DNA of 64,000 nt from Escherichia phage UE-S1. Under the pieces are notes generated by a model. That model was not told the DNA's origin. It did no database searches and worked only from the letters and a program-made list of their open reading frames with translations. Positions 38,748-52,983 of the stretch are shown one piece after another (the stretch's first letter is position 1; the number at the start of each line of letters is the position of its first letter). Made by a program: the position numbers and the translations under genes. The stretch lies in sequence record ON568341.1. One strand, given 5' to 3'.

Positions 38748-38788
38748 TAAAAATCCAGTACTGAATAGTACTGGACTAATAAGGAGTT

Positions 38789-39439: not shown

Positions 39440-39450
39440 TTTAAAATATT

Positions 39451-39476
39451 AAAGCCAGCACAAGAGCACTGGCTTT
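39451..39476. terminator. bidirectional terminator hairpin between convergent genes
   Basis: AAAGCCAG-loop-CTGGCTTT with flanking A/T runs. Confidence 0.55.
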
Positions 39477-39480
39477 AATA

Positions 39481-40626
39481 TTATTTTTTCCAAGGAAGTA
39501 ACGAAGTTGGAATCTTGATAGGTATATTTGATGCAGCAACATCAGGAAAATTTGCATCTCCACAAACATACAAATTATCGATTTCGTCAATCAATAATGT
39601 ATAGTTGTAACTTCTACAAAAACCGCTTAAGCCTCTTCCCTCTAATGCAGATAAATTCATTTCAGTGAATTGAGTTATATATGTTTCATTTGAACCAACA
39701 CCACATTGACCATTAGCATTTATACCACAAGTAAGCAATTTATTATTGTTTTGAATTACACATGATGGTCCAGCAAGGTTCGTACCTAGTTCACCTACAA
39801 CATTAACTTCACCTTTTAATGATAAATTTTGGATCACTGTACTCATAGGGACACGCGATGTATTTCCAACACCTGCTTGTCCTGAGCCATTAGTGGATGC
39901 AACTTTAACAGTACCGTCATTAAGAAAAATATAAGATGTTTCGATGGTATTAACTGCTTGTGTAGCTGTTGTTATTGTCGTATCCTGCTTGAATTTAAGT
40001 ACATTTGTTGTTGTTGAACCAGATATAAATGTAGCACCTGCGTACCAATAGGTTCCATCTTGAAGTACTAAACCAGTACTTCTAATTGAACACCCTGCAC
40101 TGCGAACATTTTCTATATGACTATATGTAAAGGTTGATACGATTGAAGATTCACCATTACCGAACACCCCACCAGTACCTGCACCACAGAAAAACCATTT
40201 ACCGTTTTTCAAAAATACACGCATACAAGCAGAAATAACCACACTATCAATATCACTTGCAGCTACACCAAAATCGGTAAAGAAATGAGTTATATCAATC
40301 CAATTACCACCAGTATTTGATGGGAGATGGGGAATTACAACTCTAGTCCCTGTGTACCAGATTGTATCATCATCTTTAATAACAAGAGTACCTTGAACAC
40401 CACCCCAATACCTTGTTACATTTGTATTAACAAGCCTCCACTCAGTAGATGATTCAGTGGAGCCATTACCACCTTGACCATAAGATGATGAGCCGTGCCA
40501 GTATAAATTTCCATTTTTATCTAAATAAAATTTTGCATCAGCCGAACATTGCAATCTGTATTTGAATACGGTTTTTGGTGCTGGTGCAATATTTGCATAT
40601 TTTAGCATTCTACCAAAAGGTAACAT
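39481..40626 (-). CDS. RCC1-like beta-propeller protein with conserved MLPFGRM N-terminus (array member 9, most downstream)
   Basis: N-terminus MLPFGRMLKYANIAP; repeats such as GSSSYGQGGNG, CGAGTGGVFGNG, CGINANGQCGVG. Confidence 0.7.
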   Translation of the reverse strand: MLPFGRMLKYANIAPAPKTVFKYRLQCSADAKFYLDKNGNLYWHGSSSYGQGGNGSTESSTEWRLVNTNVTRYWGGVQGTLVIKDDDTIWYTGTRVVIPHLPSNTGGNWIDITHFFTDFGVAASDIDSVVISACMRVFLKNGKWFFCGAGTGGVFGNGESSIVSTFTYSHIENVRSAGCSIRSTGLVLQDGTYWYAGATFISGSTTTNVLKFKQDTTITTATQAVNTIETSYIFLNDGTVKVASTNGSGQAGVGNTSRVPMSTVIQNLSLKGEVNVVGELGTNLAGPSCVIQNNNKLLTCGINANGQCGVGSNETYITQFTEMNLSALEGRGLSGFCRSYNYTLLIDEIDNLYVCGDANFPDVAASNIPIKIPTSLLPWKK

Positions 40627-40665
40627 AATTTTTCTCCTTCATTCATTATACTGTATTTAATCCAA

Positions 40666-40693
40666 TTAAGAAAAGCTAGTATCAAGTACTGGC
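40666..40693 (-). terminator. inter-cassette hairpin plus T-run
   Basis: GCTAGTA-TCAAG-TACTGGC with T-rich tract on minus strand. Confidence 0.5.
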
Positions 40694-40704
40694 ATTTAAA
40701 AGAA

Positions 40705-41880
40705 TCAAATTGTCGGAAGTGGGAATTCTTTCATCACCGATGAACTGTTTGCTGCAATATTATCAGGAGATTTACCAGCGTAGTATAATTTATTATTAAT
40801 AAACATATATAGCGTTGCATCGTTCCCTGCTACAAGAGAATTACTTTTCTTAAAAATAACCCCTGGGGGTAAAATAGCTTCAACAAATGAACCTGATTCT
40901 CGTGTTGAATTGTTTGCCAATTGACCATTATTATTATAACCAGTACTATAAATTTTACCTGAACTATAATACACAAGACCACGTGTACTAATGTTTTCTA
41001 TACGAATGAATTCACTATCGTCCGGTACTGTAGTTGATAGAACTGGGTATAACTTATAAGCTGATGTTACATTATTATTACCCAATTGACCATAACCTTG
41101 AAAGCCTAGTGCATACATAGGACATGATTCTGGTGTACCTTTTGTTATAATACCAATATAATTCGAACTACAAAAAATATCCACTGCTTCTACAACATTT
41201 GTACCCTTATATTGAACCCAAGGAAATACATATGATTGTTGTTTGCCATTACCCAAAACACCGGAAGTTGTTGTACCTGTACGCCACATTGTATCATCAA
41301 GTTTAATAATCCAGTTAGCAGTTGTTATAGTTGAACAGAATTTTTTAACATTATCAACCAAGTATGTAAATTTATTATAATATGATGCAGTGTTTATTCC
41401 AAATTTAGCACCAGTATTGTCACCTAACAAATATAAACTATTATCTGTACCTAAAATCAAAACATAATCATGACCCACGTATATCTTTTTGATTTTTGAA
41501 ATACCAAATTGTGTAAAATAGCTGGTACATTCAGTGAATATTGTTACATGATTTGATGTATTATTACCTAGCCATTTATCTAAACCACTATAAAAGAACC
41601 TATCATCATTTGTGCGTATTAGACAAAAAGAATTATTTGTACTGCACCAGAAATCTTTGACATTACTATATATTTTTGTCCATTCAGTTACTTGATTAGT
41701 ATGACCTAAACCAAAAATTCCACCATTTTGTAGTCCCATAGCCCATATTGAACCATTTTTATCAAGAAGCATTGTGCATGTAAATGAATACCCACACGCT
41801 GGAGTAACTAATTTAACAAAATTGGGAATATATGGTAAAACTTTATTCCCATAATTCACCATTCTTCCAAAAGGTAACAT
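40705..41880 (-). CDS. RCC1-like beta-propeller protein with conserved MLPFGRM N-terminus (array member 8)
   Basis: MLPFGRMVNYGN; repeats GYGQLGNNN, NNNGQLANNS. Confidence 0.7.
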   Translation of the reverse strand: MLPFGRMVNYGNKVLPYIPNFVKLVTPACGYSFTCTMLLDKNGSIWAMGLQNGGIFGLGHTNQVTEWTKIYSNVKDFWCSTNNSFCLIRTNDDRFFYSGLDKWLGNNTSNHVTIFTECTSYFTQFGISKIKKIYVGHDYVLILGTDNSLYLLGDNTGAKFGINTASYYNKFTYLVDNVKKFCSTITTANWIIKLDDTMWRTGTTTSGVLGNGKQQSYVFPWVQYKGTNVVEAVDIFCSSNYIGIITKGTPESCPMYALGFQGYGQLGNNNVTSAYKLYPVLSTTVPDDSEFIRIENISTRGLVYYSSGKIYSTGYNNNGQLANNSTRESGSFVEAILPPGVIFKKSNSLVAGNDATLYMFINNKLYYAGKSPDNIAANSSSVMKEFPLPTI

Positions 41881-41916
41881 ATTCTCTCCTTATTCATTAT
41901 AATATATATTTAATAC

Positions 41917-41948
41917 AAATAATAATGCCAGTACTCAAATACTGGCAT
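41917..41948 (-). terminator. inter-cassette hairpin plus T-run
   Basis: ATGCCAGTA-CTCAA-ATACTGGCAT. Confidence 0.5.
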
Positions 41949-41953
41949 TATTA

Positions 41954-43144
41954 TTACAATTGTCTAGGTGTATCCAGAACATATCTATTTGTGCTAGGAC
42001 CGCCATCATCATAAGTTCCGGTTGAATATATATTTTTCATATCAGCAGTTAGAAATGTACGATACGAACCTCTATATATTTTTATTTTATCATACATATT
42101 ATATGTAATTTGTGCTGGCATTGGACATATAGTAAATCTTCCAATAGTCCCCACTGAACCTACCCCCAATGAGCCAGCATAACTACTCGCATTTAAACCA
42201 GTTGCATATACACCAGAACTCGTAACTAGTATACTAGATTGTGATGGGTATCCAGTATGAATTGAATACAAAGTTCCAGGTGGTAATGTCGTACTATTTC
42301 TCCCTAATACAGCAAGTGCCGAACTGGATGTGGTATTATTACCCCATGCACCATTACTTGCTAAACCACCAACTAGGAACTGACGTACACCCGTACTTGG
42401 ATTTTCCACCAAAGCACTGACTGAACCCATTGAGCATCCAGTGTATTGTAACGTTTTTGTGTATGTTGTACTTGGCTGATATAAAGTATATTCATTATAT
42501 AAAGTCCATGTAGTACTGGAACTTATACCGGATGTACCACCACCAATATATAAATTATTTTGTTTATCAAACAACATTACACAGTTATTTGTTGACATTA
42601 TTTGTGCAATATCAACATTAGGTGTTACTGCTTTTACAAATGAACCATCTGTTATTTGTTGAGTTTTTCCAGTACCATCAGCGAATTGTCTAGCCCCACT
42701 CCAACCAGTACTCCATATTGTATTATTATCCATTAAGAAAGTAAACCACGTAGTACCTGCATACATCTGTTTAATTGAAGTACTTGAACTTTGTTTGTAC
42801 AAATTTTCAATATATTGGTTATAACTTAAAAATGATGTAGTACTGGTTGGTAAACCAATATGACTACCAAATCCACAATAGAAATAATTTAAGTCATTAT
42901 CTTGAACTAACAAAGTTCCTTGTGTGATCCAGCAATCATTAACGTTTTCTCTAATTAATGTCCATGTTCTTAATGCAGTGTTGTTTCCTCTCCCAAACTG
43001 CCCAAAACTATTATTACCTCGTGCATATAGTTGACCATCAGTATAAAGTACAACAACATCAGTATCGGTTGTTAGTATTTTCTTAATTTGAAGTGGGATA
43101 GGTACAATATTCCCGTACTTAACCATTCTTGCAAAAGGTAACAT
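41954..43144 (-). CDS. conserved-N-terminus family protein, beta-propeller-like (array member 7)
   Basis: MLPFARMVKYGNIVP; G/S/T/N-rich with NSFGQFGRGNN repeat. Confidence 0.65.
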   Translation of the reverse strand: MLPFARMVKYGNIVPIPLQIKKILTTDTDVVVLYTDGQLYARGNNSFGQFGRGNNTALRTWTLIRENVNDCWITQGTLLVQDNDLNYFYCGFGSHIGLPTSTTSFLSYNQYIENLYKQSSSTSIKQMYAGTTWFTFLMDNNTIWSTGWSGARQFADGTGKTQQITDGSFVKAVTPNVDIAQIMSTNNCVMLFDKQNNLYIGGGTSGISSSTTWTLYNEYTLYQPSTTYTKTLQYTGCSMGSVSALVENPSTGVRQFLVGGLASNGAWGNNTTSSSALAVLGRNSTTLPPGTLYSIHTGYPSQSSILVTSSGVYATGLNASSYAGSLGVGSVGTIGRFTICPMPAQITYNMYDKIKIYRGSYRTFLTADMKNIYSTGTYDDGGPSTNRYVLDTPRQL

Positions 43145-43180
43145 ATTTTCCTCCTTTATTCATTATACTATATTTAATCA

Positions 43181-43208
43181 AAAAGAAAAGCCAGTATCAA
43201 GTACTGGC
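43181..43208 (-). terminator. inter-cassette hairpin plus T-run
   Basis: GCCAGTA-TCAAG-TACTGGC; minus strand followed by TTTTCTTTT. Confidence 0.55.
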
Positions 43209-43215
43209 CTATATT

Positions 43216-43953
43216 TTAGACTGAATTGTTAGGATAATATCTCCCCCTTCCCCATATTATTCGCACAGCACCACCACCAGCAGCCGTATAAGAAGAATTA
43301 TCCCATATACTACCACCACCACCATACCTCTTACCAGCACCACCACTACCAGCACCACCATTATATGAACCACCGTAGCTACCACCAATACCATTAGCAC
43401 CTTGAACAATGATACCAGTACCACCACCCGTACCAATGAACGAGGTACTATAGAATGTACCACCCCCACCGCCGCCACCAGCACCATTTTCACCAGTGAT
43501 TGCATCTCCGTTACCACCTTTACCAGTGTAGCCACCAGCACCACCACCAATGACTGCACCACCACTTACACCAGTGTTGCCACCATTACCACCACCATCA
43601 TTAATAGCGTTAGCAGCTTTTCCACCTAGTCCACCAACCGTATATGCACCAGTGAAGCTAACACATAGTTTTTCAGTTCCACGATATAAACCGTTTTCAA
43701 CTGCTGTAGTAGTGTTGGGATGTGTAAGAGAAACACTTAAGTACTCACCACCAGAAACCGGAATATTATTACGCCACGATAAGCCGCCACCAGCACCACG
43801 TTGACCACCCGGCGAAATAACACATACTGATATTTCGGTAACGCCAGCAGGAACTGTAAATTGTGTTGTTCCTATTGTCGTGATTAATTGTTCACCATGT
43901 GGCTTATATTCAATTTTATTCCCGAACTTAACCATTCTTCCAAAAGGTAACAT
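43216..43953 (-). CDS. conserved-N-terminus family protein with glycine-rich body (array member 6)
   Basis: MLPFGRMVKFGN then long GGxGG tracts. Confidence 0.65.
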   Translation of the reverse strand: MLPFGRMVKFGNKIEYKPHGEQLITTIGTTQFTVPAGVTEISVCVISPGGQRGAGGGLSWRNNIPVSGGEYLSVSLTHPNTTTAVENGLYRGTEKLCVSFTGAYTVGGLGGKAANAINDGGGNGGNTGVSGGAVIGGGAGGYTGKGGNGDAITGENGAGGGGGGGTFYSTSFIGTGGGTGIIVQGANGIGGSYGGSYNGGAGSGGAGKRYGGGGSIWDNSSYTAAGGGAVRIIWGRGRYYPNNSV

Positions 43954-43990
43954 AATTCCCTCCTTTATTTGTTATACTATATTTAATACA

Positions 43991-44018
43991 AAAAGAAAAG
44001 CCAGTACTCAGTACTGGC
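43991..44018 (-). terminator. inter-cassette hairpin plus T-run
   Basis: GCCAGTACT-CA-GTACTGGC. Confidence 0.55.
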
Positions 44019-44024
44019 ATAATG

Positions 44025-45167
44025 TCAATAAGTATCCCAAGGTAATGGTGTCTTCCTAAATCCATACCTGGTTGTGCTCGCACCATCACCAGCAATGTAT
44101 CTACCTATACCACATTGGTATAACTCTGTACTACTACATATAGCACCACCTATAGTACCACTACTCCACTGAATTATATTAGAATATGTTATTGGTAAAT
44201 CACTACATTTAGTATATACAGCAACGGTAGAAGCACCACTAATACCACCAAACATACTTCGCTTAGCACCAGTGTAATATATACCATCTGGACTCATAAA
44301 TGCAGAGGTGTAAGTTGTACTGCAATCCACTGGACTTCTTATTGTATTAAGATCGCCTGGATATGTTCTGACACCAAAGGTGTATACATTACCATCAGTT
44401 GTAATACCATTACCTAACTGCCCACTGTTTTGTCCACCACATGTAAGCAACGATGCAGAACCAGAAACAATTGCAGTAGCATTATACGAAGTGCCCATTG
44501 CAATAGAAGCACCAGACAATAGTTTTGGAGTAACAATAGCTGTTGTATTACCCTGGCCTAATTCACCATTTGTGTTTCGTCCCCATGCGTATATGGAAGT
44601 AGTATCCAACCTACATAGTACTGAACCATAACTAAACGTATATCGCATGTCAATTACCGCAGAAGGCAAATTAACCTTAGTTGCAACACTAATAACACCA
44701 CCAGTAACACCACTGTTTGCGTTCATGTTACGACCATATGCATATAAAGAACCATCTGAAGTTTTAATATGCATCATACCATCTGTACAATATAATGCAT
44801 CTATACTCTCCACCGCAACCGGACCCATACTGGTAGTTATATCGGTCCACCCAAGAGTAGTAGTACTAGAAATTAAGTTATTTCCTGCGTATAGTATTCT
44901 ATTATTATTAGTAACTACAACTGTATATCTGGCAGTAACACCAATTAATCGAACATCAGTATATATCTTAGACCACGCACCTAATGAATTGGTGTTTGCA
45001 TCCAAAAAGCCCAACTGCCCATCTGTATTGTATCCAATGCCCCATACATCACCTGCACTGTCCAATAACACTTCATGTGAAAATCCAATCTTAAAATCTT
45101 TTATTGTAGGAACTACCGGATCTGGTGCAATATTCCCGTACTTAACCATTCTAGTAAAAGGTAACAT
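44025..45167 (-). CDS. RCC1-like beta-propeller protein with conserved N-terminus (array member 5)
   Basis: MLPFTRMVKYGNIAP; repeats GYNTDGQLGF, GRNTNGELGQGN, GGQNSGQLGNG. Confidence 0.7.
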   Translation of the reverse strand: MLPFTRMVKYGNIAPDPVVPTIKDFKIGFSHEVLLDSAGDVWGIGYNTDGQLGFLDANTNSLGAWSKIYTDVRLIGVTARYTVVVTNNNRILYAGNNLISSTTTLGWTDITTSMGPVAVESIDALYCTDGMMHIKTSDGSLYAYGRNMNANSGVTGGVISVATKVNLPSAVIDMRYTFSYGSVLCRLDTTSIYAWGRNTNGELGQGNTTAIVTPKLLSGASIAMGTSYNATAIVSGSASLLTCGGQNSGQLGNGITTDGNVYTFGVRTYPGDLNTIRSPVDCSTTYTSAFMSPDGIYYTGAKRSMFGGISGASTVAVYTKCSDLPITYSNIIQWSSGTIGGAICSSTELYQCGIGRYIAGDGASTTRYGFRKTPLPWDTY

Positions 45168-45203
45168 AATTCCCTCCCTTATTCATTATAATATATTTAA
45201 TAC

Positions 45204-45234
45204 AAAAAAGAAAAGCCAGTACTTGAGTACTGGC
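45204..45234 (-). terminator. inter-cassette hairpin plus T-run
   Basis: GCCAGTACT-TG-AGTACTGGC. Confidence 0.55.
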
Positions 45235-45240
45235 ATTATG

Positions 45241-46350
45241 TTATTTTGGTAAATCAATTTTAGTAAAGACTGCAACATCCTCGCTTGCCCCAGGAATGGC
45301 GTAATACGATCCAGTACTATATACATCTCCGTCTTTGGTTAATATTGATGTTAAACCATCACTAAAAAGAACATCCCTAATCTCACTAACTTCAACGGGT
45401 AATTGTAAATTAGTAGCACTATATATTGCACCAGTTTGAGAATTGTTTAATCCCAAACCACGGTTCGCCCCAACACCCTTCTGATATGTACTAGTAATTA
45501 TCATTTGTGTAGCAGTATTTAAGGCAGGTGAATTCGTCATAAACAACGGAGAACTATTAGGCAAAGTACTTGCAGGAACTGCACGAAATGAAGTTGTATC
45601 TGAACTAAGAAAGTTTGGCGTTTGACCACATACGAAATATGATGTACCATTATAGTAATTAAATGCATTACCACCAATGACTGCATCGATTACACCAGAG
45701 CTACGTAATCCCCACGTGTTAATTTGTGTTCGGTTCCCCGTGCCATGCTGACCCCTGTCATTCCACCCAGAACTATATAACTTATTATCTAATGTAATAT
45801 ACATACTGTCATTTGCATTCGTCATTACTTTACGCACATTAGTAGCACATTGAGTTAATGTGTAAATTGATGATGAACCAATACCTAAAGCACCACGATA
45901 TCCATTAGCTCCTGCACCATAGAGTACTGAACTAGTGCTAAGTACAAATATTAAACCATACGAACATACAATATTAGCAATTTCACTCACTGGTATAGCA
46001 CTGGTAAACCAATTAGTTCTTTCAACTAATACTGTGCTGTAAGAAGTAGTTGTAGACGATGTGAACCAATATGTTTCCCCTGATGTCCATATAGTATTAT
46101 CATTTTTAATAATAACAAGTGCACGATCACCTACGAAAAAATTAGAAACATCTGCACTTACTAATATCCATGAAGATACCGTGTTTTTATTACCATTTCC
46201 AGATTCACCACCTTGATTTCTACCTATGTAATATAAATCATGTGAATCAGTTAATAAGAATTGACCCTGTGTAGATGCACCAACTTTAATTATATTTTTA
46301 GGACCAGGTACAATATTCCCATAATCAAACATTCTTACAAAAGGTAACAT
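45241..46350 (-). CDS. RCC1-like beta-propeller protein with conserved N-terminus (array member 4)
   Basis: Track ORF to 46365; start moved to internal ATG (MLPFVRMFDYGNIVP) with GGAG 9 nt upstream. Confidence 0.65.
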   Translation of the reverse strand: MLPFVRMFDYGNIVPGPKNIIKVGASTQGQFLLTDSHDLYYIGRNQGGESGNGNKNTVSSWILVSADVSNFFVGDRALVIIKNDNTIWTSGETYWFTSSTTTSYSTVLVERTNWFTSAIPVSEIANIVCSYGLIFVLSTSSVLYGAGANGYRGALGIGSSSIYTLTQCATNVRKVMTNANDSMYITLDNKLYSSGWNDRGQHGTGNRTQINTWGLRSSGVIDAVIGGNAFNYYNGTSYFVCGQTPNFLSSDTTSFRAVPASTLPNSSPLFMTNSPALNTATQMIITSTYQKGVGANRGLGLNNSQTGAIYSATNLQLPVEVSEIRDVLFSDGLTSILTKDGDVYSTGSYYAIPGASEDVAVFTKIDLPK

Positions 46351-46387
46351 AACTAAAATCTCCATATAATAATTATAATGTATTTAC

Positions 46388-46420
46388 AAAAAAATACCAG
46401 CACATATTTCAGTACTGGTA
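46388..46420 (-). terminator. inter-cassette hairpin plus T-run
   Basis: TACCAG..AGTACTGGTA stem with T7 on minus strand. Confidence 0.5.
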
Positions 46421-46425
46421 TAATG

Positions 46426-47607
46426 TTATGGTAAAATAATAGCTTGTAACGAACTCATACCCAATGTTGGAACACTCGCCTGTGGTGCTGGAGAATTCAA
46501 TTTTGGTGATGAAACCGCATATGACATTCCTGAACCCAAATCTGGATCAAAAACTACAGCACAATAATTCCCACTATATATAAGTCCATTCTTGTATCCT
46601 TGTGCACTTTGAATGCATTTCGTGAACGTACCAATATCTGTAGTGGCATTTATTAAGTTCCTCCCACGATAACCGCAGGTGTATATGAAATTATCATCGC
46701 CTATGTACATACTAGAATCCCCAGAAGAACTACATAGATACGACATATAAGCACGCATGTTTTTAGGAGCAACTGACAATGTACCTGCATAGAATTTATT
46801 ATTCGAACCCGTAATATTACCATCACCCAATGCACCAAAACTTCCCCAGCCAGTACCGTAATATCTCTTATCACTCAAAAATATAATACAGTTGTTATTA
46901 CACATCTTGATTTGATATATCAATGAAGGATCAATCCCAGGGAATGATTCAGTGAATGTTAGAACAGCCGGATCAGTACTAGCATTACATTGATGATATG
47001 TATTAGTACCAGCGGACAAGATTGTTCCATTAGCTAACAGAATTCTCGCAGTACCAGTACCAGCAGTACAAGCAACTGCACTTCCTGCACTTCCGGTGTA
47101 TATTTGTCTGAAAGTAAAGAAACCAACAGTTTTACTTCCCTGCCCACTCCAACCAGTATTATCAACTCCACACGCCCATACTGAACCATCTTGCATGATC
47201 ATCATTACACCAAAGCGTTCTATTGAAATATAAACAATCTTCGTTGTATCAACTGCACTAAATCTAGAAGTTATATCAGTCCATACCTTAACACTTACCG
47301 CCGTCGCACTGGAAGTAGGATCTTCACCAGCTATCATTATCCTCCCATTGTTAGTAAGATACATTGTCTGACTATAACCAGTACTACAAAACTTAACACT
47401 ATCAGTCTCTGGAACTTTTAACCACTCGTTGTAACGTGTTACGTTAGTGTTATTACCTAACTGATAATAGTTATTCATCCCAGATACATATAACACACCA
47501 TCCTTTATTAAACTATAAGTCGCACTATAGTCACTACAGGTATAACGTGTACCCACAGGTGGCTCAACGACGTTCCCGTACTTAACCATTCTCCCAAAAG
47601 GTAACAT
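46426..47607 (-). CDS. RCC1-like beta-propeller protein with conserved N-terminus (array member 3)
   Basis: MLPFGRMVKYGNVVEP; repeats NNYYQLGNN, DNTGWSGQGS, GSFGALGDGN. Confidence 0.7.
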   Translation of the reverse strand: MLPFGRMVKYGNVVEPPVGTRYTCSDYSATYSLIKDGVLYVSGMNNYYQLGNNTNVTRYNEWLKVPETDSVKFCSTGYSQTMYLTNNGRIMIAGEDPTSSATAVSVKVWTDITSRFSAVDTTKIVYISIERFGVMMIMQDGSVWACGVDNTGWSGQGSKTVGFFTFRQIYTGSAGSAVACTAGTGTARILLANGTILSAGTNTYHQCNASTDPAVLTFTESFPGIDPSLIYQIKMCNNNCIIFLSDKRYYGTGWGSFGALGDGNITGSNNKFYAGTLSVAPKNMRAYMSYLCSSSGDSSMYIGDDNFIYTCGYRGRNLINATTDIGTFTKCIQSAQGYKNGLIYSGNYCAVVFDPDLGSGMSYAVSSPKLNSPAPQASVPTLGMSSLQAIILP

Positions 47608-47642
47608 AATAAAATCTCCGTAATTAAATTATATAGTATTTA

Positions 47643-47676
47643 CAAAAAATACCAGTACATATTTCAGTACTGACCT
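47643..47676 (-). terminator. inter-cassette hairpin plus T-run
   Basis: CAGTAC-loop-GTACTG palindrome with T-run. Confidence 0.5.
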
Positions 47677-47680
47677 ATTA

Positions 47681-48802
47681 TTAAAAGGGCAACGGTAACT
47701 CAGTAAAAGTACTTACGTCCGGTAAACCATACATTAAATTAGCATCACCACAGTAATACCACTTCGTAGAATCATGTACCACCGATAAACGCTGTGCACA
47801 TAACACTTCCTGTATGTCATTAAACACCATCGGGACTAACTCATATGTATCTGCAAATGAAGATTCACTACCACTCGCATGAAAAGTATTTGTCCCAGCA
47901 TAAAATAACTGATTAGTGTTCTTACCCACAGCAAATGTTATCAAAACCCCATCATTCTCCCATAAAGAAGAAAACTTATCAACACTACCAGAAAGCTCTG
48001 TGTAAGTACTCGTAATGGCACTCGCCGCCGCCGCATTACCCATCTGTTTATTCAAGTTCTGTCCAGCAATAAAATATCTCGTTCGTGCACTAGAATCAGT
48101 ATATAATAACCCAGTGTTCGTAGTCATCATTCCAATGTCCTTAATCGTCATATCAGTCTGTGAATAACTTAGATACGAAGTTAAATTAACATTATTACCC
48201 AACGAACCGTTAGAACTCATGCCACAACGATGTAATATACCACTTGTATCAACGTAGATAGTACTAACTAAACTCGTATACAACTCTTGTACATTATTCG
48301 CAATAAACACAGCAGTCGCCTTATTACTAACCCCACCAAATGATAGGTTATTATCAAATCCCTTAGCGTATAATTGATTATTAGTAGTCAATAATCCAAT
48401 CGTGTAATAAGACATTTTCATATCCCTTACTGTACTCAAATCTACTGCCCCAAATTGATACGTAACATCTGTCCATTTGAAAATCTGTGCACTACCAACA
48501 CCACCCGTTTCAAACCATTTGTCACCACAGTACAATATGCGATTATCCTTAGTAAAGATAACTGTTAACAATCCACTACCACACGCAAACTTTACATCAC
48601 TTCTAACCTTCGTCCAATCAAGTACATAGGTAGTGGTGTTATTACCTATACCTAACTTGCCATAACGGTTATAACCACGCACCCATAAATCACCACTCTT
48701 AGTAATTAATAGTAATGCGTCTCCTGTACTTATTATTCGAAATCCCGAACTAGGATCAGGGGCAATATTCCCGTACTTAACCATTCTCCCAAAAGGTAAC
48801 AT
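47681..48802 (-). CDS. RCC1-like beta-propeller protein with conserved N-terminus (array member 2)
   Basis: MLPFGRMVKYGNIAPDP; repeats GYNRYGKLGIGNN, SSNGSLGNN. Confidence 0.7.
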   Translation of the reverse strand: MLPFGRMVKYGNIAPDPSSGFRIISTGDALLLITKSGDLWVRGYNRYGKLGIGNNTTTYVLDWTKVRSDVKFACGSGLLTVIFTKDNRILYCGDKWFETGGVGSAQIFKWTDVTYQFGAVDLSTVRDMKMSYYTIGLLTTNNQLYAKGFDNNLSFGGVSNKATAVFIANNVQELYTSLVSTIYVDTSGILHRCGMSSNGSLGNNVNLTSYLSYSQTDMTIKDIGMMTTNTGLLYTDSSARTRYFIAGQNLNKQMGNAAAASAITSTYTELSGSVDKFSSLWENDGVLITFAVGKNTNQLFYAGTNTFHASGSESSFADTYELVPMVFNDIQEVLCAQRLSVVHDSTKWYYCGDANLMYGLPDVSTFTELPLPF

Positions 48803-48837
48803 ATTTTCCTCCTTTATTCATTATACTATATTTAATA

Positions 48838-48869
48838 CAAAAAGAAATGCCAGTATCAAGTACTGGCAT
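48838..48869 (-). terminator. inter-cassette hairpin plus T-run
   Basis: ATGCCAGTA-TCAAG-TACTGGCAT. Confidence 0.55.
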
Positions 48870-48875
48870 ATTAAT

Positions 48876-50024
48876 TCATTGTATAAATGACATATCTACT
48901 TCTGTATAATTAAGAACGTTCTGTCCAGAAATACCACCCATTACTACTATTGCAAGGCCACAATAATATAATTTTCCAGTATCCGTAAGTATAAGTGATC
49001 CAGATGGACTGCGTACCAAATCACACGAACTATTAAAAGAAGTATAAGAAGGAGTATAGGAGTACTGATTATTATTATTACCAACACCTAATTGCCCAAA
49101 CCCATTCGATCCAGAAGCATATAGAACTTCATCTGCTTTGACAATATGTGATGCCATGTTACCAACACAAGTATATAGAGTATAAACTCCTGAACTCAAT
49201 AATGTCGGAGTTTTATATTGTATATCTGTAGATGTAGAAGTACCACCTGTACCAAATTCGTTCCCATATTGTGCACCGAACTGTTTGCCACAAGCGTACA
49301 AATTATTATCCGATTTGATAAAAAATGTACTCTGATAACTTACATTAAAATCTATAACATCCGAAGAAATCATCGTCACCCCAGTAATAGAAGTTTGATT
49401 ACCCGTGCCCAACTGGTAGTAATAGTTAAAACCACAACCCCATAAAGTATTATCTTCTCGCAAATAAATGTTACCAACTGCCTTTTTAACCGAAGTTATA
49501 GTATCTACTCTTTTGAATGTGTTAAAAGAATTAATGTTTGTACCATCACCAAATGATGATATGTTCGATATATTGTTAACTCCACAACAATACAATGTAC
49601 CATCTTTTGTTATCAAATTCACCTTCATATCATAAAAACTACTCATGTATTTTATATCAGAAACATTAACACCACTTGATGTTATCCACGTAGTACAGTC
49701 CGTCCACAAAGTTTTTCTATCAGTTACACCAGTGAATGCCTTCGTGTTACCAGTGATAAAAACTTTTCCAGTACCTTTCTCTTCATACAATTGACAATCA
49801 CTACTGTTATCTTCCAATAGAACTCGTTTAACATTCTCCGCACAAAGAATAAATTTACTCGATGCTACACCTGTACCAGTACCCCAATTCGTCGCAGAAG
49901 ATGCATACAACTTATCAGTATAAGTATCATGAAGATACATAGAATCACTGGAATATATTTTAAAACGCCCTTCTTTCTCAGGTATAATATTCCCGTACTT
50001 AACCATTCTCCCAAAAGGTAACAT
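48876..50024 (-). CDS. RCC1-like beta-propeller protein with conserved N-terminus (array member 1, most upstream)
   Basis: MLPFGRMVKYGNIIPE; repeats GFNYYYQLGTGN, GSNGFGQLGVGNN. Confidence 0.7.
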   Translation of the reverse strand: MLPFGRMVKYGNIIPEKEGRFKIYSSDSMYLHDTYTDKLYASSATNWGTGTGVASSKFILCAENVKRVLLEDNSSDCQLYEEKGTGKVFITGNTKAFTGVTDRKTLWTDCTTWITSSGVNVSDIKYMSSFYDMKVNLITKDGTLYCCGVNNISNISSFGDGTNINSFNTFKRVDTITSVKKAVGNIYLREDNTLWGCGFNYYYQLGTGNQTSITGVTMISSDVIDFNVSYQSTFFIKSDNNLYACGKQFGAQYGNEFGTGGTSTSTDIQYKTPTLLSSGVYTLYTCVGNMASHIVKADEVLYASGSNGFGQLGVGNNNNQYSYTPSYTSFNSSCDLVRSPSGSLILTDTGKLYYCGLAIVVMGGISGQNVLNYTEVDMSFIQ

Positions 50025-50066
50025 ATTCCCTCCTTATTCATTATATCATATTTACCCAAAAAACAC

Positions 50067-50095
50067 TTGACACCCTTTCAGTACTGTTGTACAAT
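50067..50095 (+). promoter_or_regulatory. sigma-70-type promoter (TTGACA-17-TACAAT)
   Basis: TTGACACCCTTTCAGTACTGTTGTACAAT in divergent intergenic region. Confidence 0.5.
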
Positions 50096-50348: not shown

Positions 50349-50557
50349 ACACTATGAGCACTGAACAGTTCTACATCAATGCACTACCAACTAAAAGTCT
50401 TCAAGAAAGCTTACTGTATACACAAAAGAATTTTAAAAACTTCAAACGTTGCCCTAAACTACTGAACTCGTACAGGAATAATATTATAAGAAATGTTTTA
50501 CAAGGAGAAGAAAGTATGCAATACTATCACATCCTTATACTTATATTGGAGTACTAA
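50345..50557 (+). CDS. small protein, family C
   Basis: ATGA overlap; ends LILILEY. Confidence 0.5.
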   Translation: MNTMSTEQFYINALPTKSLQESLLYTQKNFKNFKRCPKLLNSYRNNIIRNVLQGEESMQYYHILILILEY

Positions 50558-50558
50558 T

Positions 50559-50768
50559 ATGAATACTGAACATAAAGAATTCTACACCAAATACCTCAGT
50601 AACGAAGAACAATTGTTTCTAAGAAGTGTATCACCGGTAAGTACCAATACTCAATTCGGTAGAGATTGCTTTAATAATTGTATACGTAGTACCCTAGAAG
50701 CAATCGAATATAATAACAAAAATATTATGTACTCAGGTTTAATAGGACTAATATTCTTCTATGAATAA
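50559..50768 (+). CDS. small protein, family C
   Basis: Start in TACTAATATGAATA junction; MNTEHKEFYTKYL ... LIFFYE. Confidence 0.55.
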   Translation: MNTEHKEFYTKYLSNEEQLFLRSVSPVSTNTQFGRDCFNNCIRSTLEAIEYNNKNIMYSGLIGLIFFYE

Positions 50769-50955
50769 TCATAAAGATTTCTATGGTAGTAAACTACACA
50801 AACATGAACAGCTATCATTCTCTTTAGCACCACCTATGAGAAAGGATAATCTATATTATAATTACGATTTCAGGATGGCGACACGTTATGCAATAGAACA
50901 TCAGTTCCCTGAAACTAAGTACCGCTCTATCCTGAACCTCATCTTTAAGTTCTAA
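50761..50955 (+). CDS. small protein, family C
   Basis: MNNHKDFYGSKL ... LIFKF. Confidence 0.55.
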   Translation: MNNHKDFYGSKLHKHEQLSFSLAPPMRKDNLYYNYDFRMATRYAIEHQFPETKYRSILNLIFKF

Positions 50956-51002
50956 AAACAGCACCAGGGTCCGAGTACTTTAACATAGTAAGGCTAATTA
51001 CA

Positions 51003-51188
51003 ATGAATCATATACGCTACTATTACCAACAACTATCCGACAGGGACAAGTACAGCCACAATTCCCATGTATGGTACTACAAACGCGGCAGTATAAGAGA
51101 CAAACAACATTACTTCTGTATTTCTATTAAAGAAGCACTAACAACTAAGTACACGTACAGAGCAGTACTTAAACTAATCTCTATCTAA
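51003..51188 (+). CDS. small protein, family C-like
   Basis: Track ORF in array. Confidence 0.45.
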   Translation: MNHIRYYYQQLSDRDKYSHNSHVWYYKRGSIRDKQHYFCISIKEALTTKYTYRAVLKLISI

Positions 51189-51196
51189 GGAATACT

Positions 51197-51376
51197 ATGC
51201 AAGAATTCTATATAGAACATATAACCATAAAAGACCGTTTCATGTACCACACCTTCGTGAAATACTACAAACTGGGAACAAAAAGTACTAAAAATATTAA
51301 TCTCAATAGCTGCATTCATTCTGCACTAACAAAAGATAATCCCTTCAGGGAAATCCTCGCACTAGCATCTGTATAA
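51197..51376 (+). CDS. small protein, family C (59 aa, below track cut-off)
   Basis: ATG after AAGGAATACT; MQEFYIEHI. Confidence 0.45.
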   Translation: MQEFYIEHITIKDRFMYHTFVKYYKLGTKSTKNINLNSCIHSALTKDNPFREILALASV

Positions 51377-51386
51377 AGGAAACCAA

Positions 51387-52221: not shown

Positions 52222-52222
52222 T

Positions 52223-52402: not shown

Positions 52403-52410
52403 CACATAAT

Positions 52411-52602: not shown

Positions 52603-52603
52603 T

Positions 52604-52792: not shown

Positions 52793-52793
52793 T

Positions 52794-52982: not shown

Positions 52983-52983
52983 A

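What the first reader, a model, noticed from the sequence alone, without database searches (positions are those of the whole stretch)
39440..50066. Each gene of the array is a self-contained cassette: hairpin, conserved TATAATGAATAAAGGAGG leader, conserved 5-prime coding block
Every intergenic gap (~70 bp) contains an AGTACT-centred hairpin (e.g. GCCAGTACT..AGTACTGGC) followed on the minus strand by a T-run, then TATAATGAATAA(A)GGAGG and the ATG. The DNA of the first ~40 coding nt is also conserved. This gives ~100 bp of near-identical sequence between divergent bodies, an ideal substrate for homologous recombination shuffling. The TATAAT lies only ~17 nt from the ATG, so a conventional -10 would give an unusually short leader; the transcription signal may be of another class.
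Basis: seen in the sequence. Interest (0 to 1): 0.6.

Follow-up and report, generated by a model that had tools for sequence, protein, structure and literature searches.

The report
Recombining gene cassettes in jumbo phage
Nine neighbouring genes of a giant E. coli virus each have their own stop signal, start signal and a shared 12-residue protein tag. Related viruses have swapped and reordered the genes at these ~120-base junctions, which extends a mechanism already described for relatives of phage T4.

Summary
Window 39481-50024 (minus strand) holds nine tandem genes of an Asteriusvirus-like jumbo coliphage: eight RCC1-like beta-propellers and one glycine-rich, tail-fibre-like protein. All start MLPFxRMxxYGN. 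Every internal gap has a terminator-like hairpin plus T-run, a promoter-like box, a strong Shine-Dalgarno sequence and a conserved 45-nt coding start. Two of nine leaders are a different variant. Junction identity averages 76% (64-93%), not "near-identical"; gene bodies are at chance level (52%).

The likely promoter element is not the TATAAT. It is an invariant TAAATA 3 nt upstream, matching the T4-type late box (ATAAATA) upstream of structural genes in phAPEC6. That gives a ~20-nt leader and removes the short-leader problem. No transcript data exist.

Nine related phages share a pool of at least 31 cassette types in different numbers and conflicting orders. Between orthologs, the conserved 5' block diverges 2.5 times more than the body. 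Synonymous sites of the tag codons are fixed. This supports recombination at the junctions.

Orthologs are virion-associated by mass spectrometry. The tag is predicted disordered on two unrelated folds, suggesting a docking peptide.

Closest analogues: T4-type PeSL cassettes and T-even internal-protein loci. New variant of a known kind; interest about 0.5.

The parts
48876..50024 (-). Array gene 1 (cassette type C): RCC1-like beta-propeller, 382 aa, N-terminus MLPFGRMVKYGN
   Evidence: ORF. Pfam WD40_RLD/RCC1. 96.9% aa identity to phAPEC6 gp549, which was detected in virions by mass spectrometry (PMC7247149 Table 1).
50025..50054 (-). Promoter and leader of gene 1: TAAATA 50049-50054, TATAAT 50040-50045, GGAG 50030-50033
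   Evidence: There is no upstream terminator hairpin here. A divergent sigma70-like promoter for the + strand abuts at 50067-50095.
48847..48869 (-). Terminator-like hairpin after gene 1 (ATGCCAGTACTTGATACTGGCAT followed by TTCTTTTT)
   Evidence: 9 pairs; -12.0 kcal/mol.
47681..48802 (-). Array gene 2 (type K): RCC1-like propeller, 373 aa
   Evidence: 97.3% aa identity to the ph0011 ortholog and 94.1% to the EJP2 ortholog.
48803..48834 (-). Promoter and leader of gene 2 (type I): TAAATA 48829-48834, TATAAT 48820-48825, GGAG 48809-48812
47651..47674 (-). Terminator-like hairpin after gene 2 (type II form, 8-nt loop, followed by ATTTTTTG)
   Evidence: 8 pairs; -10.6 kcal/mol.
46426..47607 (-). 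Array gene 3 (type N): RCC1-like propeller, 393 aa
   Evidence: 92.4% aa identity to the EJP2 ortholog; the K-N adjacency is shared with EJP2.
47608..47642 (-). Promoter and leader of gene 3 (type II variant): TAAATA 47637-47642, TATAAT 47628-47633, GGAG 47616-47619
   Evidence: It matches the junction form used throughout phage EJP2.
46394..46421 (-). Terminator-like hairpin after gene 3 (type II form, followed by TTTTTTG)
   Evidence: 10 pairs; -14.4 to -15.1 kcal/mol.
45241..46350 (-). Array gene 4 (type A): RCC1-like propeller, 369 aa. The real start is the MLPF ATG at 46350, not the upstream ATG at 46365.
   Evidence: 93.5% aa identity to 121Q gene 246.
46351..46386 (-). Promoter and leader of gene 4 (type II variant): TAAATA 46381-46386, TATAAT 46372-46377, GGAG 46360-46363
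45215..45234 (-). Terminator-like hairpin after gene 4 (GCCAGTACTCAAGTACTGGC followed by TTTTCTTTTT)
   Evidence: -13.2 kcal/mol.
44025..45167 (-). Array gene 5 (type D): RCC1-like 7-bladed propeller, 380 aa, with a flexible N-terminal tag
   Evidence: Pfam. AlphaFold2 pLDDT 90, but residues 1-10 average 47 and residues 11-20 average 64, all coil. Foldseek hits UVR8/RPGR/RCC1 with TM about 0.75. The ortholog phAPEC6 gp005 was detected in virions.
45168..45199 (-). Promoter and leader of gene 5 (type I): TAAATA 45194-45199, TATAAT 45185-45190, GGAG 45174-45177
44000..44018 (-). Terminator-like hairpin after gene 5 (GCCAGTACTGAGTACTGGC followed by TTTTCTTTTT)
   Evidence: -12.4 kcal/mol.
43216..43953 (-). 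Array gene 6 (type G): 245-aa glycine-rich protein, not RCC1-like, with the same N-terminal tag
43954..43985 (-). Promoter and leader of gene 6: TAAATA 43980-43985, TATAAC 43971-43976, GGAG 43960-43963
43188..43210 (-). Terminator-like hairpin after gene 6
   Evidence: 9 pairs; -11.5 to -12.6 kcal/mol.
41954..43144 (-). Array gene 7 (type B): RCC1-like propeller, 396 aa
   Evidence: 88% aa identity to orthologs in CRJP21, slurp01 and ELP-22.
43145..43176 (-). Promoter and leader of gene 7 (type I): TAAATA 43171-43176, TATAAT 43162-43167, GGAG 43151-43154
41920..41953 (-). Hairpin after gene 7 (extended stem around GCCAGTATTTGAGTACTGGC). The tail ATTATTATTTG is a weak T-run.
   Evidence: -19 to -21 kcal/mol. 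It was not called by the terminator scan.
40705..41880 (-). Array gene 8 (type O): RCC1-like propeller, 391 aa
   Evidence: 90.3% aa identity to the CRJP21 ortholog.
41881..41912 (-). Promoter and leader of gene 8: TAAATA 41907-41912, a 5-nt spacer, TATAAT 41896-41901, GGAG 41886-41889
40675..40693 (-). Weak hairpin after gene 8 (GCCAGTACTTGATACTAGC, one mismatch, followed by TTTTCTTAATT)
   Evidence: -7.7 kcal/mol for the region. Not called by the scan.
39481..40626 (-). Array gene 9 (type E): RCC1-like propeller, 381 aa, N-terminus MLPFGRMLKYAN
   Evidence: 94.5% aa identity to the last array gene of ph0011.
40627..40659 (-). Promoter and leader of gene 9: TAAATA 40654-40659, TATAAT 40645-40650, GGAG 40634-40637
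39447..39480 (-). Strong terminal hairpin closing the array (TATTAAAGCCAGTGCTCTTGTGCTGGCTTTAATA followed by TTTT)
   Evidence: -20.7 to -22.6 kcal/mol.

Best explanation
The region is a tandem array of nine accessory virion-protein genes in an Asteriusvirus-like jumbo coliphage (relatives of 121Q, PBECO4 and phAPEC6).

Each gene fuses a flexible N-terminal tag of about 12 residues (MLPFxRMxxYGN) to a ligand-binding-type body. Eight bodies are RCC1-like 7-bladed propellers. One is a glycine-rich domain of the kind found in solved phage tail fibres and tail brushes.

Each intergenic gap supplies four things: (i) an intrinsic-terminator-like hairpin plus U-tract for the upstream gene; (ii) a promoter for the downstream gene that has no -35; (iii) a strong Shine-Dalgarno sequence; and (iv) the tag-coding block. 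The recognition element of the promoter is most likely the invariant TAAATA box, a T4-type late box read by the phage's gp55-like sigma, rather than the TATAAT 3 nt downstream. Transcription would then start inside the TATAAT and give a leader of about 20 nt.

This ~115-120-bp junction is the only nucleotide similarity left among the anciently diverged paralogs. The phage's T4-like recombination machinery uses it for unequal crossing-over and gene conversion, so cassettes are duplicated, lost, exchanged and reordered among related phages. The tag most likely docks each product onto a common site of the virion.

Shown here: the gene structure, the motifs, the fold predictions, and the comparative mosaicism. 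Taken from the literature: virion association of orthologs. Inferred: terminator and promoter activity, late timing, the docking role of the tag, and the recombination mechanism.
For: Identity of the region: the flanks are about 89-90% identical to Asteriusvirus genomes. The array sits at the same locus as 121Q genes 234-248.

Terminators: hairpins with T-runs follow every gene. The depositors of the G17 record independently annotated the equivalent hairpins as ARNOLD terminators.

Promoter:
- TAAATA is 9/9 invariant in the window.
- It is present 25-55 nt upstream of 85 of 128 tagged genes in 12 genomes or contigs. The spacing to TATAAT is 3 nt in 73 of the 78 junctions with a box in the 10-genome set.
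- It survives in three sequence-divergent junction 'dialects'.
- phAPEC6 structural genes (major capsid protein, scaffold, gp228c, gp231c, gp232, gp238, gp242, gp244, gp245, gp253 and others) carry ATAAATA 30-55 nt upstream of their start codons. CBB and GAP32 have the same late motif (PMC5259590).
- The only other occurrence of the composite motif in the window precedes minus-strand ORF 9777-10931. That ORF is 79% identical to phAPEC6 gp077, a virion protein detected by mass spectrometry.
- No acceptable -35 exists for the TATAAT.
- T4 late promoters have no -35, an AT-rich downstream segment and either polarity (PMC2988020). The array runs opposite to the early genes on both sides.

Virion association: eight phAPEC6 array products were detected by mass spectrometry, including orthologs of window genes 1 and 5.

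Tag:
- The invariant residues are M1, P3, F4, R6, Y10 and N12.
- Residues 1-11 have pLDDT below 50 and are coil on two unrelated high-confidence folds.
- The tag is also attached to Kelch, Laminin_G_3 and unknown bodies in distant jumbo contigs.
- Homologs of the G body in other phage lineages carry a different N-terminus.
- The G body resembles solved tail-fibre and tail-brush proteins.

Recombination:
- Bodies show chance-level nucleotide identity (0.52 against 0.53 for a shuffled control), while junctions average 0.765.
- Tag-codon synonymous sites are fixed against body codon usage: CCT 90/90 against 28%; TTA 89/90 against 46%; AAG 51/51 against 31%.
- Cassette order conflicts and copy-number variation are described.
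- The same body is found behind type I, type II or 8-12-nt junctions.
- Orthologs diverge 2.5 times more in nt 13-45 than in the body.
- Adjacent paralogs share near-identical tag blocks more often than non-adjacent ones (Fisher p=0.004).
- phAPEC6 has a U-H-U-H duplication.
Against: There are no transcript data for any Asteriusvirus, so promoter class, timing and termination efficiency are untested.

The array box is TTAAATA or GTAAATA, a 6-7 of 8 match to T4's TATAAATA. The TATAAT itself is as well conserved as the box (82-95% per position), so it may be a functional -10 in its own right or part of a longer signal.

The hairpins are near-perfect palindromes with no sense/antisense energy difference. 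Their stems use a word that is over-represented genome-wide. A DNA-level or protein-binding role therefore cannot be excluded.

Two hairpins (after genes 7 and 8) lack a good stem or T-run.

The mass-spectrometry evidence is 1-5 peptides per protein in another phage. Location on the virion (surface or internal) is unknown, and the phAPEC6 authors proposed an internal DNA-condensation role.

Exact homology runs between junctions are short (median 17.5 nt).

The ortholog-pair statistics use non-independent pairs. A few public assemblies contain frameshifts.
Confidence: 0.6

Rival explanations
1. The TATAAT is a true -10 element used by host sigma70 or by the phage's RpoD-like sigma. On this reading each junction is an early or continuous promoter plus stem-loop, a direct counterpart of T4-type PeSLs. 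The TAAATA would be only AT-rich upstream sequence.
For: TATAAT is a perfect consensus. It is conserved at 82-95% per position across 47 distinct junction sequences and three dialects. The array lies inside an early-gene region. The phage group encodes an RpoD-like sigma. PeSLs have exactly this terminator-promoter layout (PMC2839356).
Against: No -35 or TGn extended -10 is present. The bona fide early promoters of the same window look different, TTGACA-N8-CAGTACTG-TATAAT. The leader would be about 10-11 nt and would start at the Shine-Dalgarno sequence. The products are virion proteins. TAAATA is invariant at a fixed 3-nt spacing, and it is shared with structural-gene promoters while the TATAAT is not. 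The genes run antisense to the early transcription units.
Confidence: 0.2
2. The array is one or a few long polycistronic late transcripts. The hairpins act as RNA stabilisers, processing sites or weak attenuators. The internal promoter-like boxes are passengers, copied with the junction by duplication or gene conversion.
For: In more distant relatives most tagged genes are joined by -4 to +12 nt operonic junctions, and only every second to fourth gene has a hairpin and box. Some Asteriusvirus junctions are also only 8-12 nt. The hairpins are modest, about -12 kcal/mol with 8-9 bp stems.
Against: Wherever a hairpin occurs it is followed by a T-run and the box at fixed spacing, in three otherwise divergent dialects. 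That argues for selection on both signals. All eight internal gaps of this window have the full set.
Confidence: 0.15
3. Junction conservation reflects only purifying selection on regulatory signals and on the tag peptide. Differences between phages arise by differential loss from a large ancestral array, not by recombination at the junctions.
For: The tag motif is conserved at the protein level in very distant lineages. A partial backbone order, A-E-B-G, recurs in several phages.
Against: Synonymous sites of the tag codons are fixed against codon usage. Relative-order conflicts cannot be produced by deletion alone. The junction dialect follows the genome rather than the body. Orthologs diverge more in the tag block than in the body. 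phAPEC6 has a tandem U-H-U-H duplication.
Confidence: 0.08
4. The proteins are internal head proteins, either DNA-condensing or ejected. The tag would be a capsid-targeting sequence like the CTS of the T4 internal proteins IPI-III, not a surface docking peptide.
For: The layout matches the T-even IP loci: a short shared N-terminus, unrelated variable bodies, low-copy virion association, and flanking promoter/stem-loop elements (PMC2839356 discussion). The phAPEC6 authors suggested an inner-body or DNA-condensation role.
Against: The tag has no conserved Glu or L/I-x-E protease site. The G body matches solved external tail-fibre and tail-brush proteins. The other bodies (RCC1, Kelch, LamG) are typical ligand-binding folds. 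These phages show unexplained hair-like appendages on head and tail (PMC7247149).
Confidence: 0.2

Closest known systems
PeSLs (promoter-early stem-loops) of T4-type phages (Arbiol et al. 2010, PMC2839356; Comeau et al. 2014, PMC4122927)
   Same: Both are small composite terminator-plus-promoter motifs repeated between non-essential genes in hyperplastic regions. Both provide short homology at which genes are inserted, deleted and replaced between closely related phages. The host phages here are distant members of the T4-like assemblage and have T4-like recombination genes (UvsX- and UvsW-like genes in phAPEC6).
   Different: PeSL promoters are sigma70-consensus early promoters with a -35 and an AT-rich UP region, and their stems are polyG/polyC. 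Here there is no -35, the conserved box is late-type TAAATA, and the stems are CCAGTAC/GTACTGG. The homology also extends about 45 nt into the coding sequence, into a shared protein tag. The genes are virion proteins of one locus rather than scattered ORFans. Mini-circle formation was not tested.
T-even internal-protein (IP) loci with the capsid-targeting sequence
   Same: A short conserved N-terminal peptide sits on otherwise unrelated, highly polymorphic proteins that end up in the virion at low copy number. The genes are confined to a small locus, flanked by promoter/stem-loop elements, and differ between related phages (as summarised in PMC2839356).
   Different: The tag sequence is unrelated and has no prohead-protease cleavage motif. 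The bodies are 245-396-aa propeller or fibre-type domains rather than small basic proteins. The promoter type differs. Internal location is not shown, and for cassette G it is unlikely.
'RCC1-like / putative DNA condensation' paralog arrays of 121Q, PBECO4 and phAPEC6 (Buttimer et al. 2017, PMC5259590; Wagemans et al. 2020, PMC7247149)
   Same: This is the same locus and gene family. The multiplicity of copies, and their presence in the virion proteome, are already published.
   Different: In the papers found here, the arrays are described only as paralogs or tandem duplications. The junction architecture, the shared N-terminal tag (including on non-RCC1 bodies), the promoter class and the shuffling between phages are not described. 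The library has limited coverage.
T4-type late promoters (TATAAATA; Geiduschek and Kassavetis 2010, PMC2988020) and the ATAAATA late motif of CBB and GAP32 (PMC5259590)
   Same: An AT-rich box about one helical turn upstream of the predicted start, no -35, an AT-rich downstream segment, and genes of either polarity. A gp55-like sigma is annotated in the phage group.
   Different: The array box deviates at the first one or two positions (TTAAATA or GTAAATA). It is always followed at 3 nt by TATAAT, which is not a general feature of the structural-gene promoters.
Conserved N-terminal anchor domains of multi-receptor-binding-protein systems (for example the branched tail-fibre and depolymerase sets of RaK2- and K64-1-type or CBA120-type phages; from my own knowledge, not tested here)
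   Same: One shared N-terminal attachment module is combined with many alternative distal binding domains encoded side by side.
   Different: Those anchors are folded domains of about 100 residues or more, on trimeric fibres or spikes. Here the shared part is a peptide of about 12 residues, predicted disordered, on compact monomer-sized domains.
Integron gene cassettes (attC)
   Same: Both are arrays of exchangeable single-gene units separated by inverted-repeat elements.
   Different: There is no integrase. The hairpins are 19-28 nt rather than attC-like. Each unit has its own promoter. Exchange appears to be homologous rather than site-specific. This comparison was rejected.

Membership tests
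PeSL (promoter-early stem-loop) cassettes | Composite intergenic motif joining a stem-loop terminator and a promoter | tested here: met
   A hairpin with T-run, followed within about 10 nt by the promoter-like box, is present in all 8 internal gaps.
PeSL (promoter-early stem-loop) cassettes | The promoter matches the sigma70 consensus (-35 and -10) with an AT-rich upstream region, i.e. an early promoter | tested here: not met
   The sigma70 scan finds no acceptable -35 at 16-18 nt from the TATAAT; the position falls in the T-run. The window's own early promoters have TTGACA-N8-CAGTACTG-TATAAT instead.
PeSL (promoter-early stem-loop) cassettes | Stem generally polyG/polyC (GGGG...CCCC) | tested here: not met
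   The stems are (G)CCAGTAC / GTACTGG(C).
PeSL (promoter-early stem-loop) cassettes | Motifs mark insertion, deletion and replacement breakpoints between closely related phages | tested here: met
   Cassette content and order differ among 9 genomes, with breaks inside the junction or tag block.
PeSL (promoter-early stem-loop) cassettes | Recombination between neighbouring motifs yields mini-circles | not testable with these tools
   This needs inverse PCR or long-read sequencing of lysates.
T-even internal-protein loci (CTS-tagged encapsidated proteins) | Short conserved N-terminal peptide on otherwise unrelated proteins | tested here: met
   M[LI]PFx[RK]xxxYGN is found on RCC1-like, glycine-rich, Kelch, LamG and unknown bodies.
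T-even internal-protein loci (CTS-tagged encapsidated proteins) | The tag ends in a prohead-protease site (L/I-x-E) and is removed | tested here: not met
   There is no conserved Glu in the first 15 residues across the family. Cleavage itself cannot be tested here.
T-even internal-protein loci (CTS-tagged encapsidated proteins) | Products are packaged inside the capsid | not testable with these tools
   Orthologs are in the phAPEC6 virion proteome, but their location is unknown. The G body resembles external fibre and brush proteins.
Intrinsic (Rho-independent) terminators | G+C-containing stem of at least 5 bp, a loop of 3-8 nt, and an immediately following U-tract | tested here: met
   7 of the 9 post-gene hairpins pass the scan on the array strand. 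Regions fold at -10.6 to -22.6 kcal/mol, except -7.7 after gene 8. The hairpins after genes 7 and 8 are atypical. Activity was not tested.
T4-type late promoter | 8-bp TATAAATA box about 10 bp upstream of the start | tested here: inconclusive
   The core TAAATA is invariant (9/9), but the full match is only 6-7 of 8. The start site is unknown.
T4-type late promoter | No -35 conservation, and an AT-rich segment downstream of the box | tested here: met
   Upstream there is only the terminator T-run. Downstream is TAGTATAATGAATAA.
T4-type late promoter | The phage encodes a gp55-type late sigma, and the same box precedes structural genes | tested here: met
   In the relative phAPEC6, gp237c is annotated 'sigma factor for late transcription', and ATAAATA lies upstream of more than 13 structural genes. 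The gene lies outside this window.
RCC1-like repeat beta-propeller (Pfam PF00415 / PF13540 / PF25390) | RCC1 repeats forming a 7-bladed propeller | tested here: met
   8 of 9 genes hit WD40_RLD (E 1e-14 to 1e-24, below that model's own gathering score of 150 bits). 6 of the 8 exceed the RCC1 or RCC1_2 gathering cut-offs. The AlphaFold2 model matches UVR8, RPGR and RCC1. Gene 6 is not a member.
Integron cassette array | attC recombination sites and an adjacent integrase with attI and Pc | tested here: not met
   No integrase-like ORF flanks the array. The hairpins are 19-28 nt, and each gene has its own promoter-like box.

The most novel reading that the evidence does not exclude
The junction plus tag forms a dedicated 'plug-in' system found across several jumbo-phage genera (Asteriusvirus, relatives of Serratia phage BF, and several uncultured ~360-kb phages). 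Any domain that lands behind the portable terminator / late-promoter / Shine-Dalgarno / tag module is automatically expressed late and mounted on the virion through a 12-residue docking peptide. The array would then be a rapidly re-assortable repertoire of surface binders (propellers, lectins, fibre tips) that sets adsorption or host range. In addition, the CAGTACTG palindrome, over-represented about 80-fold genome-wide, supplies the hairpin stems and sits in the spacer of early promoters. It may be the site of a phage DNA-binding factor that links early-gene shut-off, termination and cassette exchange.
Probability: 0.2. Interest if true: 0.75.

Novelty: new variant of a known kind. Interest (0 to 1): 0.5.

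Why it matters
If it holds, it extends the PeSL principle (regulatory cassettes as portable homology for modular shuffling) in three ways: from T4-type early ORFans to late virion genes, to RaK2/121Q-type jumbo phages, and across the start codon into a shared protein tag. It also reframes proteins that have been annotated for a decade as 'DNA condensation / RCC1' proteins. On this reading they are a swappable set of virion-mounted binding modules, and may be the unexplained 'hairs' of these phages. Practically, the 12-residue tag and the ~120-bp junction would be ready-made handles for displaying foreign domains on jumbo-phage virions and for engineering or predicting host range. The late-promoter assignment gives a testable annotation rule for this phage group.

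Tried and rejected
1. G-U wobble and strand-asymmetry test of the hairpins. Sense and antisense folding energies do not differ (-12.0 against -11.75 kcal/mol, p=0.89), so strand specificity rests on the T-run only.
2. Rfam at gathering thresholds on 38.5-50.5 kb: no known RNA family.
3. The sigma70 reading of the TATAAT: no -35 and no extended -10.
4. The T4 CTS and protease-site idea for the tag: no conserved Glu.
5. Integron/attC analogy: rejected, because there is no integrase and the hairpins are short.
6. A velcro-strand explanation for the conserved N-terminus, in which it would close the propeller: rejected. AlphaFold2 leaves residues 1 to about 18 outside the fold, and the same tag sits on a non-propeller fold.
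7. Pfam and PDB sequence searches for cassette G: no hits. Only fold comparison was informative.
8. Literature searches for the junction architecture, the tag, or the CAGTACTG motif in these phages: nothing relevant found. No supplementary peptide lists are held for the phAPEC6 proteome.
9. The genomic context of the PVP-SE1 homolog of G was uninformative.
10. CMSTMSU (UNVERIFIED record, heavily frameshifted) was excluded from the cassette comparison.
11. The ungapped identity measure for junctions was misleading because of indels. It was replaced by pairwise global alignments.

Full report
WHAT THE WINDOW IS. Megablast of the region and of its left flank finds 36-56 jumbo-phage records, nearly all Escherichia and Salmonella Asteriusvirus (121Q, PBECO4/slurp01, G17, phAPEC6, EJP2 and others). 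The conserved flank is about 89-90% identical. The array itself has only patchy coverage, with the best record covering 47%. The finding lies at the locus occupied in 121Q by genes 234-248, annotated 'regulator of chromosome condensation / putative DNA condensation (RCC1-like)'. The existence of this multi-copy family is published (PMC5259590; PMC7247149).

CHECK OF THE OBSERVATION. Nine minus-strand ORFs fill 39481-50024. The fourth gene starts at the MLPF ATG at 46350. Gaps are 71-78 nt. Alignment of the nine upstream regions shows a conserved block running from the 5' arm of a hairpin (about -72) to about codon 15 (+45).

The block contains, in order:
- a CCAGTAC-loop-GTACTGG hairpin;
- a T-run;
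- an invariant TAAATA;
- 3 nt (5 nt in one copy);
- TATAA(T/C);
- GGAG;
- ATGTTACCTTTT..AGAATG...

The consensus scan terminator-like sites against 5.0+/-2.8 in shuffles, and 7 of them are array hairpins on the array strand. The regions fold at -7.7 to -22.6 kcal/mol. TATAATGAATAA with at most 1 mismatch occurs 9 times against 3.0+/-1.8 expected.

By pairwise global alignment, the junction (-70..+45) averages 76.5% identity (64-93%). The first 45 coding nt average 80%. The next 120 nt (52.9%), the last 120 nt (51.3%) and whole bodies (52.4%) all equal a shuffled control (52-53%). The longest exact runs shared by two junctions have a median of 17.5 nt and a maximum of 47 nt, against at most 16 nt in bodies of about 1.1 kb.

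Two of the nine leaders, upstream of 47607 and 46350, are a distinct variant. One leader has TATAAC. 'Near-identical' is an overstatement.

THE GENES. Eight products hit Pfam RCC1-like models. An AlphaFold2 model of gene 5 (pLDDT 90, pTM 0.87) is a 7-bladed propeller that matches UVR8, RPGR and RCC1 at TM about 0.75.

Paralogs within the window share only 28-40% aa identity over partial lengths. Each is 88-97% identical to a counterpart in another phage. The paralogs are therefore old and are not recent duplicates.

THE N-TERMINAL TAG. All nine proteins start MLPFxRMxxY(G/A)N. In an alignment with distant homologs the invariant residues are M1, P3, F4, R6, Y10 and N12. In both structure models residues 1-11 are coil with pLDDT below 50 and lie outside the fold. 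This rules out a propeller 'velcro' strand.

The same tag (MIPF[AV][RK][IV]xxYGN) heads every gene of comparable arrays in uncultured ~360-kb phage contigs. The bodies there include Kelch propellers, Laminin_G_3 lectin-like domains and unknown folds. A contig equal in length (357,154 bp) to the Serratia phage BF record has one tagged gene.

Homologs of the glycine-rich body in other phage lineages (PVP-SE1 gp19 and others) carry a different conserved N-terminus, MLELL.... The tag is therefore a lineage-specific module, and is not part of the body.

Eight phAPEC6 array products were found in purified virions by mass spectrometry, at 1-5 peptides each (PMC7247149 Table 1). They include gp549 and gp005, which are the orthologs of window genes 1 and 5.

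A short, invariant, disordered N-terminal peptide on unrelated virion-associated domains is most simply a docking or incorporation signal. This is an inference.

WHICH PROMOTER? The TATAAT ends 17-21 nt before the ATG, so a sigma70-style start would give a leader of about 10-11 nt beginning at the Shine-Dalgarno sequence. No usable -35 or TGn is present.

Upstream regions of phAPEC6 structural genes (major capsid protein, scaffold, gp228c, gp229c, gp231c, gp232, gp238, gp242, gp244, gp245, gp253, gp205c, gp210) carry ATAAATA 30-55 nt before the start codon. This is the T4-like late motif already proposed for CBB and GAP32. phAPEC6 gp237c is annotated as the late sigma factor.

The array junctions have TAAATA in 9 of 9 copies. 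Across 128 tagged genes in 12 genomes or contigs, 85 have the box 25-55 nt upstream of the start codon. In the 10-genome set the spacing to the TATAAT is 3 nt in 73 of 78 junctions. The box persists in three otherwise divergent junction dialects.

In the 64-kb window the composite TAAATA-N2-5-TATAAT occurs only at the array and upstream of the lone minus-strand ORF 9777-10931. That ORF is 79% identical to phAPEC6 gp077, a virion protein with 10 peptides by mass spectrometry (PHROG 10468, 'virion structural protein').

T4 late promoters lack a -35, have an AT-rich downstream segment and drive genes of either polarity (PMC2988020). The array and ORF 9777-10931 both run against the surrounding early genes.

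Applying the T4 rule, transcription would start inside the TATAAT and give a leader of about 20 nt. I rate this reading at about 55-60%. The TATAAT is as well conserved as the box, so a dual or longer signal remains possible. No transcript data were found.

RECOMBINATION. I extracted the arrays of eight other phages and clustered 103 cassettes. They fall into 31 types at 70% aa identity or higher, or 39 types at 85%.

Cassette orders by phage:
- Window: C K N A D G B O E
- 121Q: C H A E B G V D .. I L
- G17: P F A Q C H B G M R I J
- ELP-22: S F A E B G D M I J
- EJP2: Y A Z C K N F ...
- phAPEC6: C U H U H A F Q B G D M I L J
- ph0011: only 5 genes

Relative-order conflicts affect 20 of 101 co-occurring type pairs at the 70% threshold and 8 of 83 at 85%. 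For example, the window has D-G-B where others have B-G-D, and C lies before A in some phages and after it in others. Six of the eight window adjacencies at the 70% threshold, and seven at 85%, are unique to the window. Deletion from a single ancestral order cannot explain these conflicts.

Two junction dialects exist. Type I is found in 121Q-like phages. Type II is found throughout EJP2. The window is a mosaic: it has type II only upstream of N and A, and it shares the C-K-N run with EJP2.

The same body (for example A) is found behind type I, type II or 8-10-nt operonic junctions. Tag-codon variants such as ARMMNYGNIA follow the genome or the neighbouring cassette rather than the body.

Quantitatively:
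- Orthologs differ by 10.0% in nt 13-45 but by 4.0% in nt 46-345 (97 pairs, Wilcoxon p=3e-9; the pairs are not independent).
- Adjacent paralogs share near-identical tag blocks more often than non-adjacent ones (8 of 80 against 9 of 371, p=0.004).
- The similarity of ortholog flanks depends on whether the neighbour is the same, on both sides. Crossovers therefore fall anywhere in the junction.

Synonymous sites of the tag codons are fixed against body codon usage: CCT 90/90 against 28%; TTA 89/90 against 46%; AAG 51/51 against 31%; GGG 60/83 against 11%. In a distant lineage with operonic junctions the Pro codon does vary. Conservation at the nucleotide level therefore exceeds protein-level selection and is lineage-specific. 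This is the signature of concerted evolution.

COMPARISON WITH WHAT IS KNOWN. The closest mechanism is the PeSL of T4-type phages. These are terminator-plus-promoter cassettes whose short homology mediates modular shuffling in hyperplastic regions (PMC2839356, PMC4122927). The T-even internal-protein loci add the feature of a shared N-terminal targeting peptide on polymorphic encapsidated proteins.

The present elements fail two defining PeSL features, the sigma70-type early promoter and the polyG/C stem. The tag fails the protease-site feature of the CTS. The elements therefore work like these systems but are not members of either. In more distant relatives most junctions are operonic. 'One gene, one cassette' is therefore a derived state of the Escherichia Asteriusvirus clade, and it is complete in this window.

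VERDICT. The architecture is real. The recombination and 'other promoter class' inferences are supported by comparative evidence. Transcriptional independence and the role of the tag remain inferences. The locus is already known as a paralog array. The mechanism is a new variant of a known kind (a late-type, coding-extended PeSL analogue with a universal docking tag). Interest 0.5.

Noticed in passing
whole window (e.g. 19081-19108, 32028-32055, 50067-50095, 54286-54313, 57061-57089 on the + strand): The 8-bp palindrome CAGTACTG occurs 53 times against about 0.6 expected. CAGTACT occurs 199 times against 8.2+/-3.3, and AGTACT 211 times against about 22. The consensus context is TTCAGTACTGAA. 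30 of the 53 sites lie in the ~20% of the window that is non-coding, and the sites are densest at 52-60 kb. A subset sits exactly in the spacer of sigma70-like early promoters (TTGACA-N8-CAGTACTG-TATAAT). The word is also enriched in phAPEC6 structural regions, in EJP2 and in a distant 361-kb contig. It supplies the stems of the array hairpins. No literature on it was found. It may be an operator for a phage regulator.
   Followed up: partly
window 9777-10931 (- strand), with its promoter at 10932-10968 and a hairpin just after the stop codon: A lone minus-strand gene lies inside the plus-strand early region. It is 79% identical to phAPEC6 gp077, a virion protein verified by mass spectrometry (PHROG 10468). 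It is preceded by AATAAATACGCTATAAT, the same composite late-type motif as the array, and followed by its own terminator hairpin.
   Followed up: yes
window 50493-53598 (+ strand): At least seven small paralogous ORFs (about 60-110 aa) lie immediately to the right of the RCC1 array. [quoted passage not shown] 2017 (PMC5646251) reported for 121Q. Two further paralog pairs lie at 35937-36646 and 51003-51376.
   Followed up: partly
window 38752-38777: A CCAGTACTGAATAGTACTGG hairpin of the same stem family lies between two plus-strand genes just left of the array. It has no T-run on the + strand, and its function is unclear.
   Followed up: no
L009+L006 (phAPEC6 MK817115.1, array spanning the record origin): phAPEC6 carries a tandem duplication of a two-cassette unit (types U-H-U-H), a direct footprint of unequal crossing-over between junctions. 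Its G-type cassette (244 aa) appears unannotated or mis-annotated in the record; 'gp004' is only 303 nt.
   Followed up: partly
L005 (CRJP21 OQ708376.1) and L001 (121Q): In the CRJP21 record the product names 'regulator of chromosome condensation' are attached to small plus-strand ORFs gp_559-563, while most true RCC1-like genes are labelled hypothetical. This looks like an annotation offset. In the 121Q, ELP-22 and CMSTMSU records several cassettes are split by frameshifts, which may be sequencing errors or pseudogenes.
   Followed up: no
proteins P0018, P0020, P0023, P0029, P0041, P0047, P0063 (homologs of window gene 43216-43953): Glycine-rich-domain homologs in other phage lineages (PVP-SE1 gp19, ~150-kb Plesiomonas and E. 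coli contigs) share their own conserved N-terminus, M(L/I)E(L/M)L..G. This suggests that a second, lineage-specific N-terminal tag system exists for the same body.
   Followed up: no
L013 (ENA HAYD20-1 scaffold_3, 361 kb), L017, L019 (IMG/VR ~360-kb contigs): Uncultured jumbo phages carry arrays of 10-14 tagged genes that mix RCC1-like, Kelch, Laminin_G_3 and unknown bodies. Most genes are joined by -4 to +12 nt junctions, and a hairpin + TTTTTT + GGTTAAATAnnnTATAATGAT module occurs only every few genes.
   Followed up: partly
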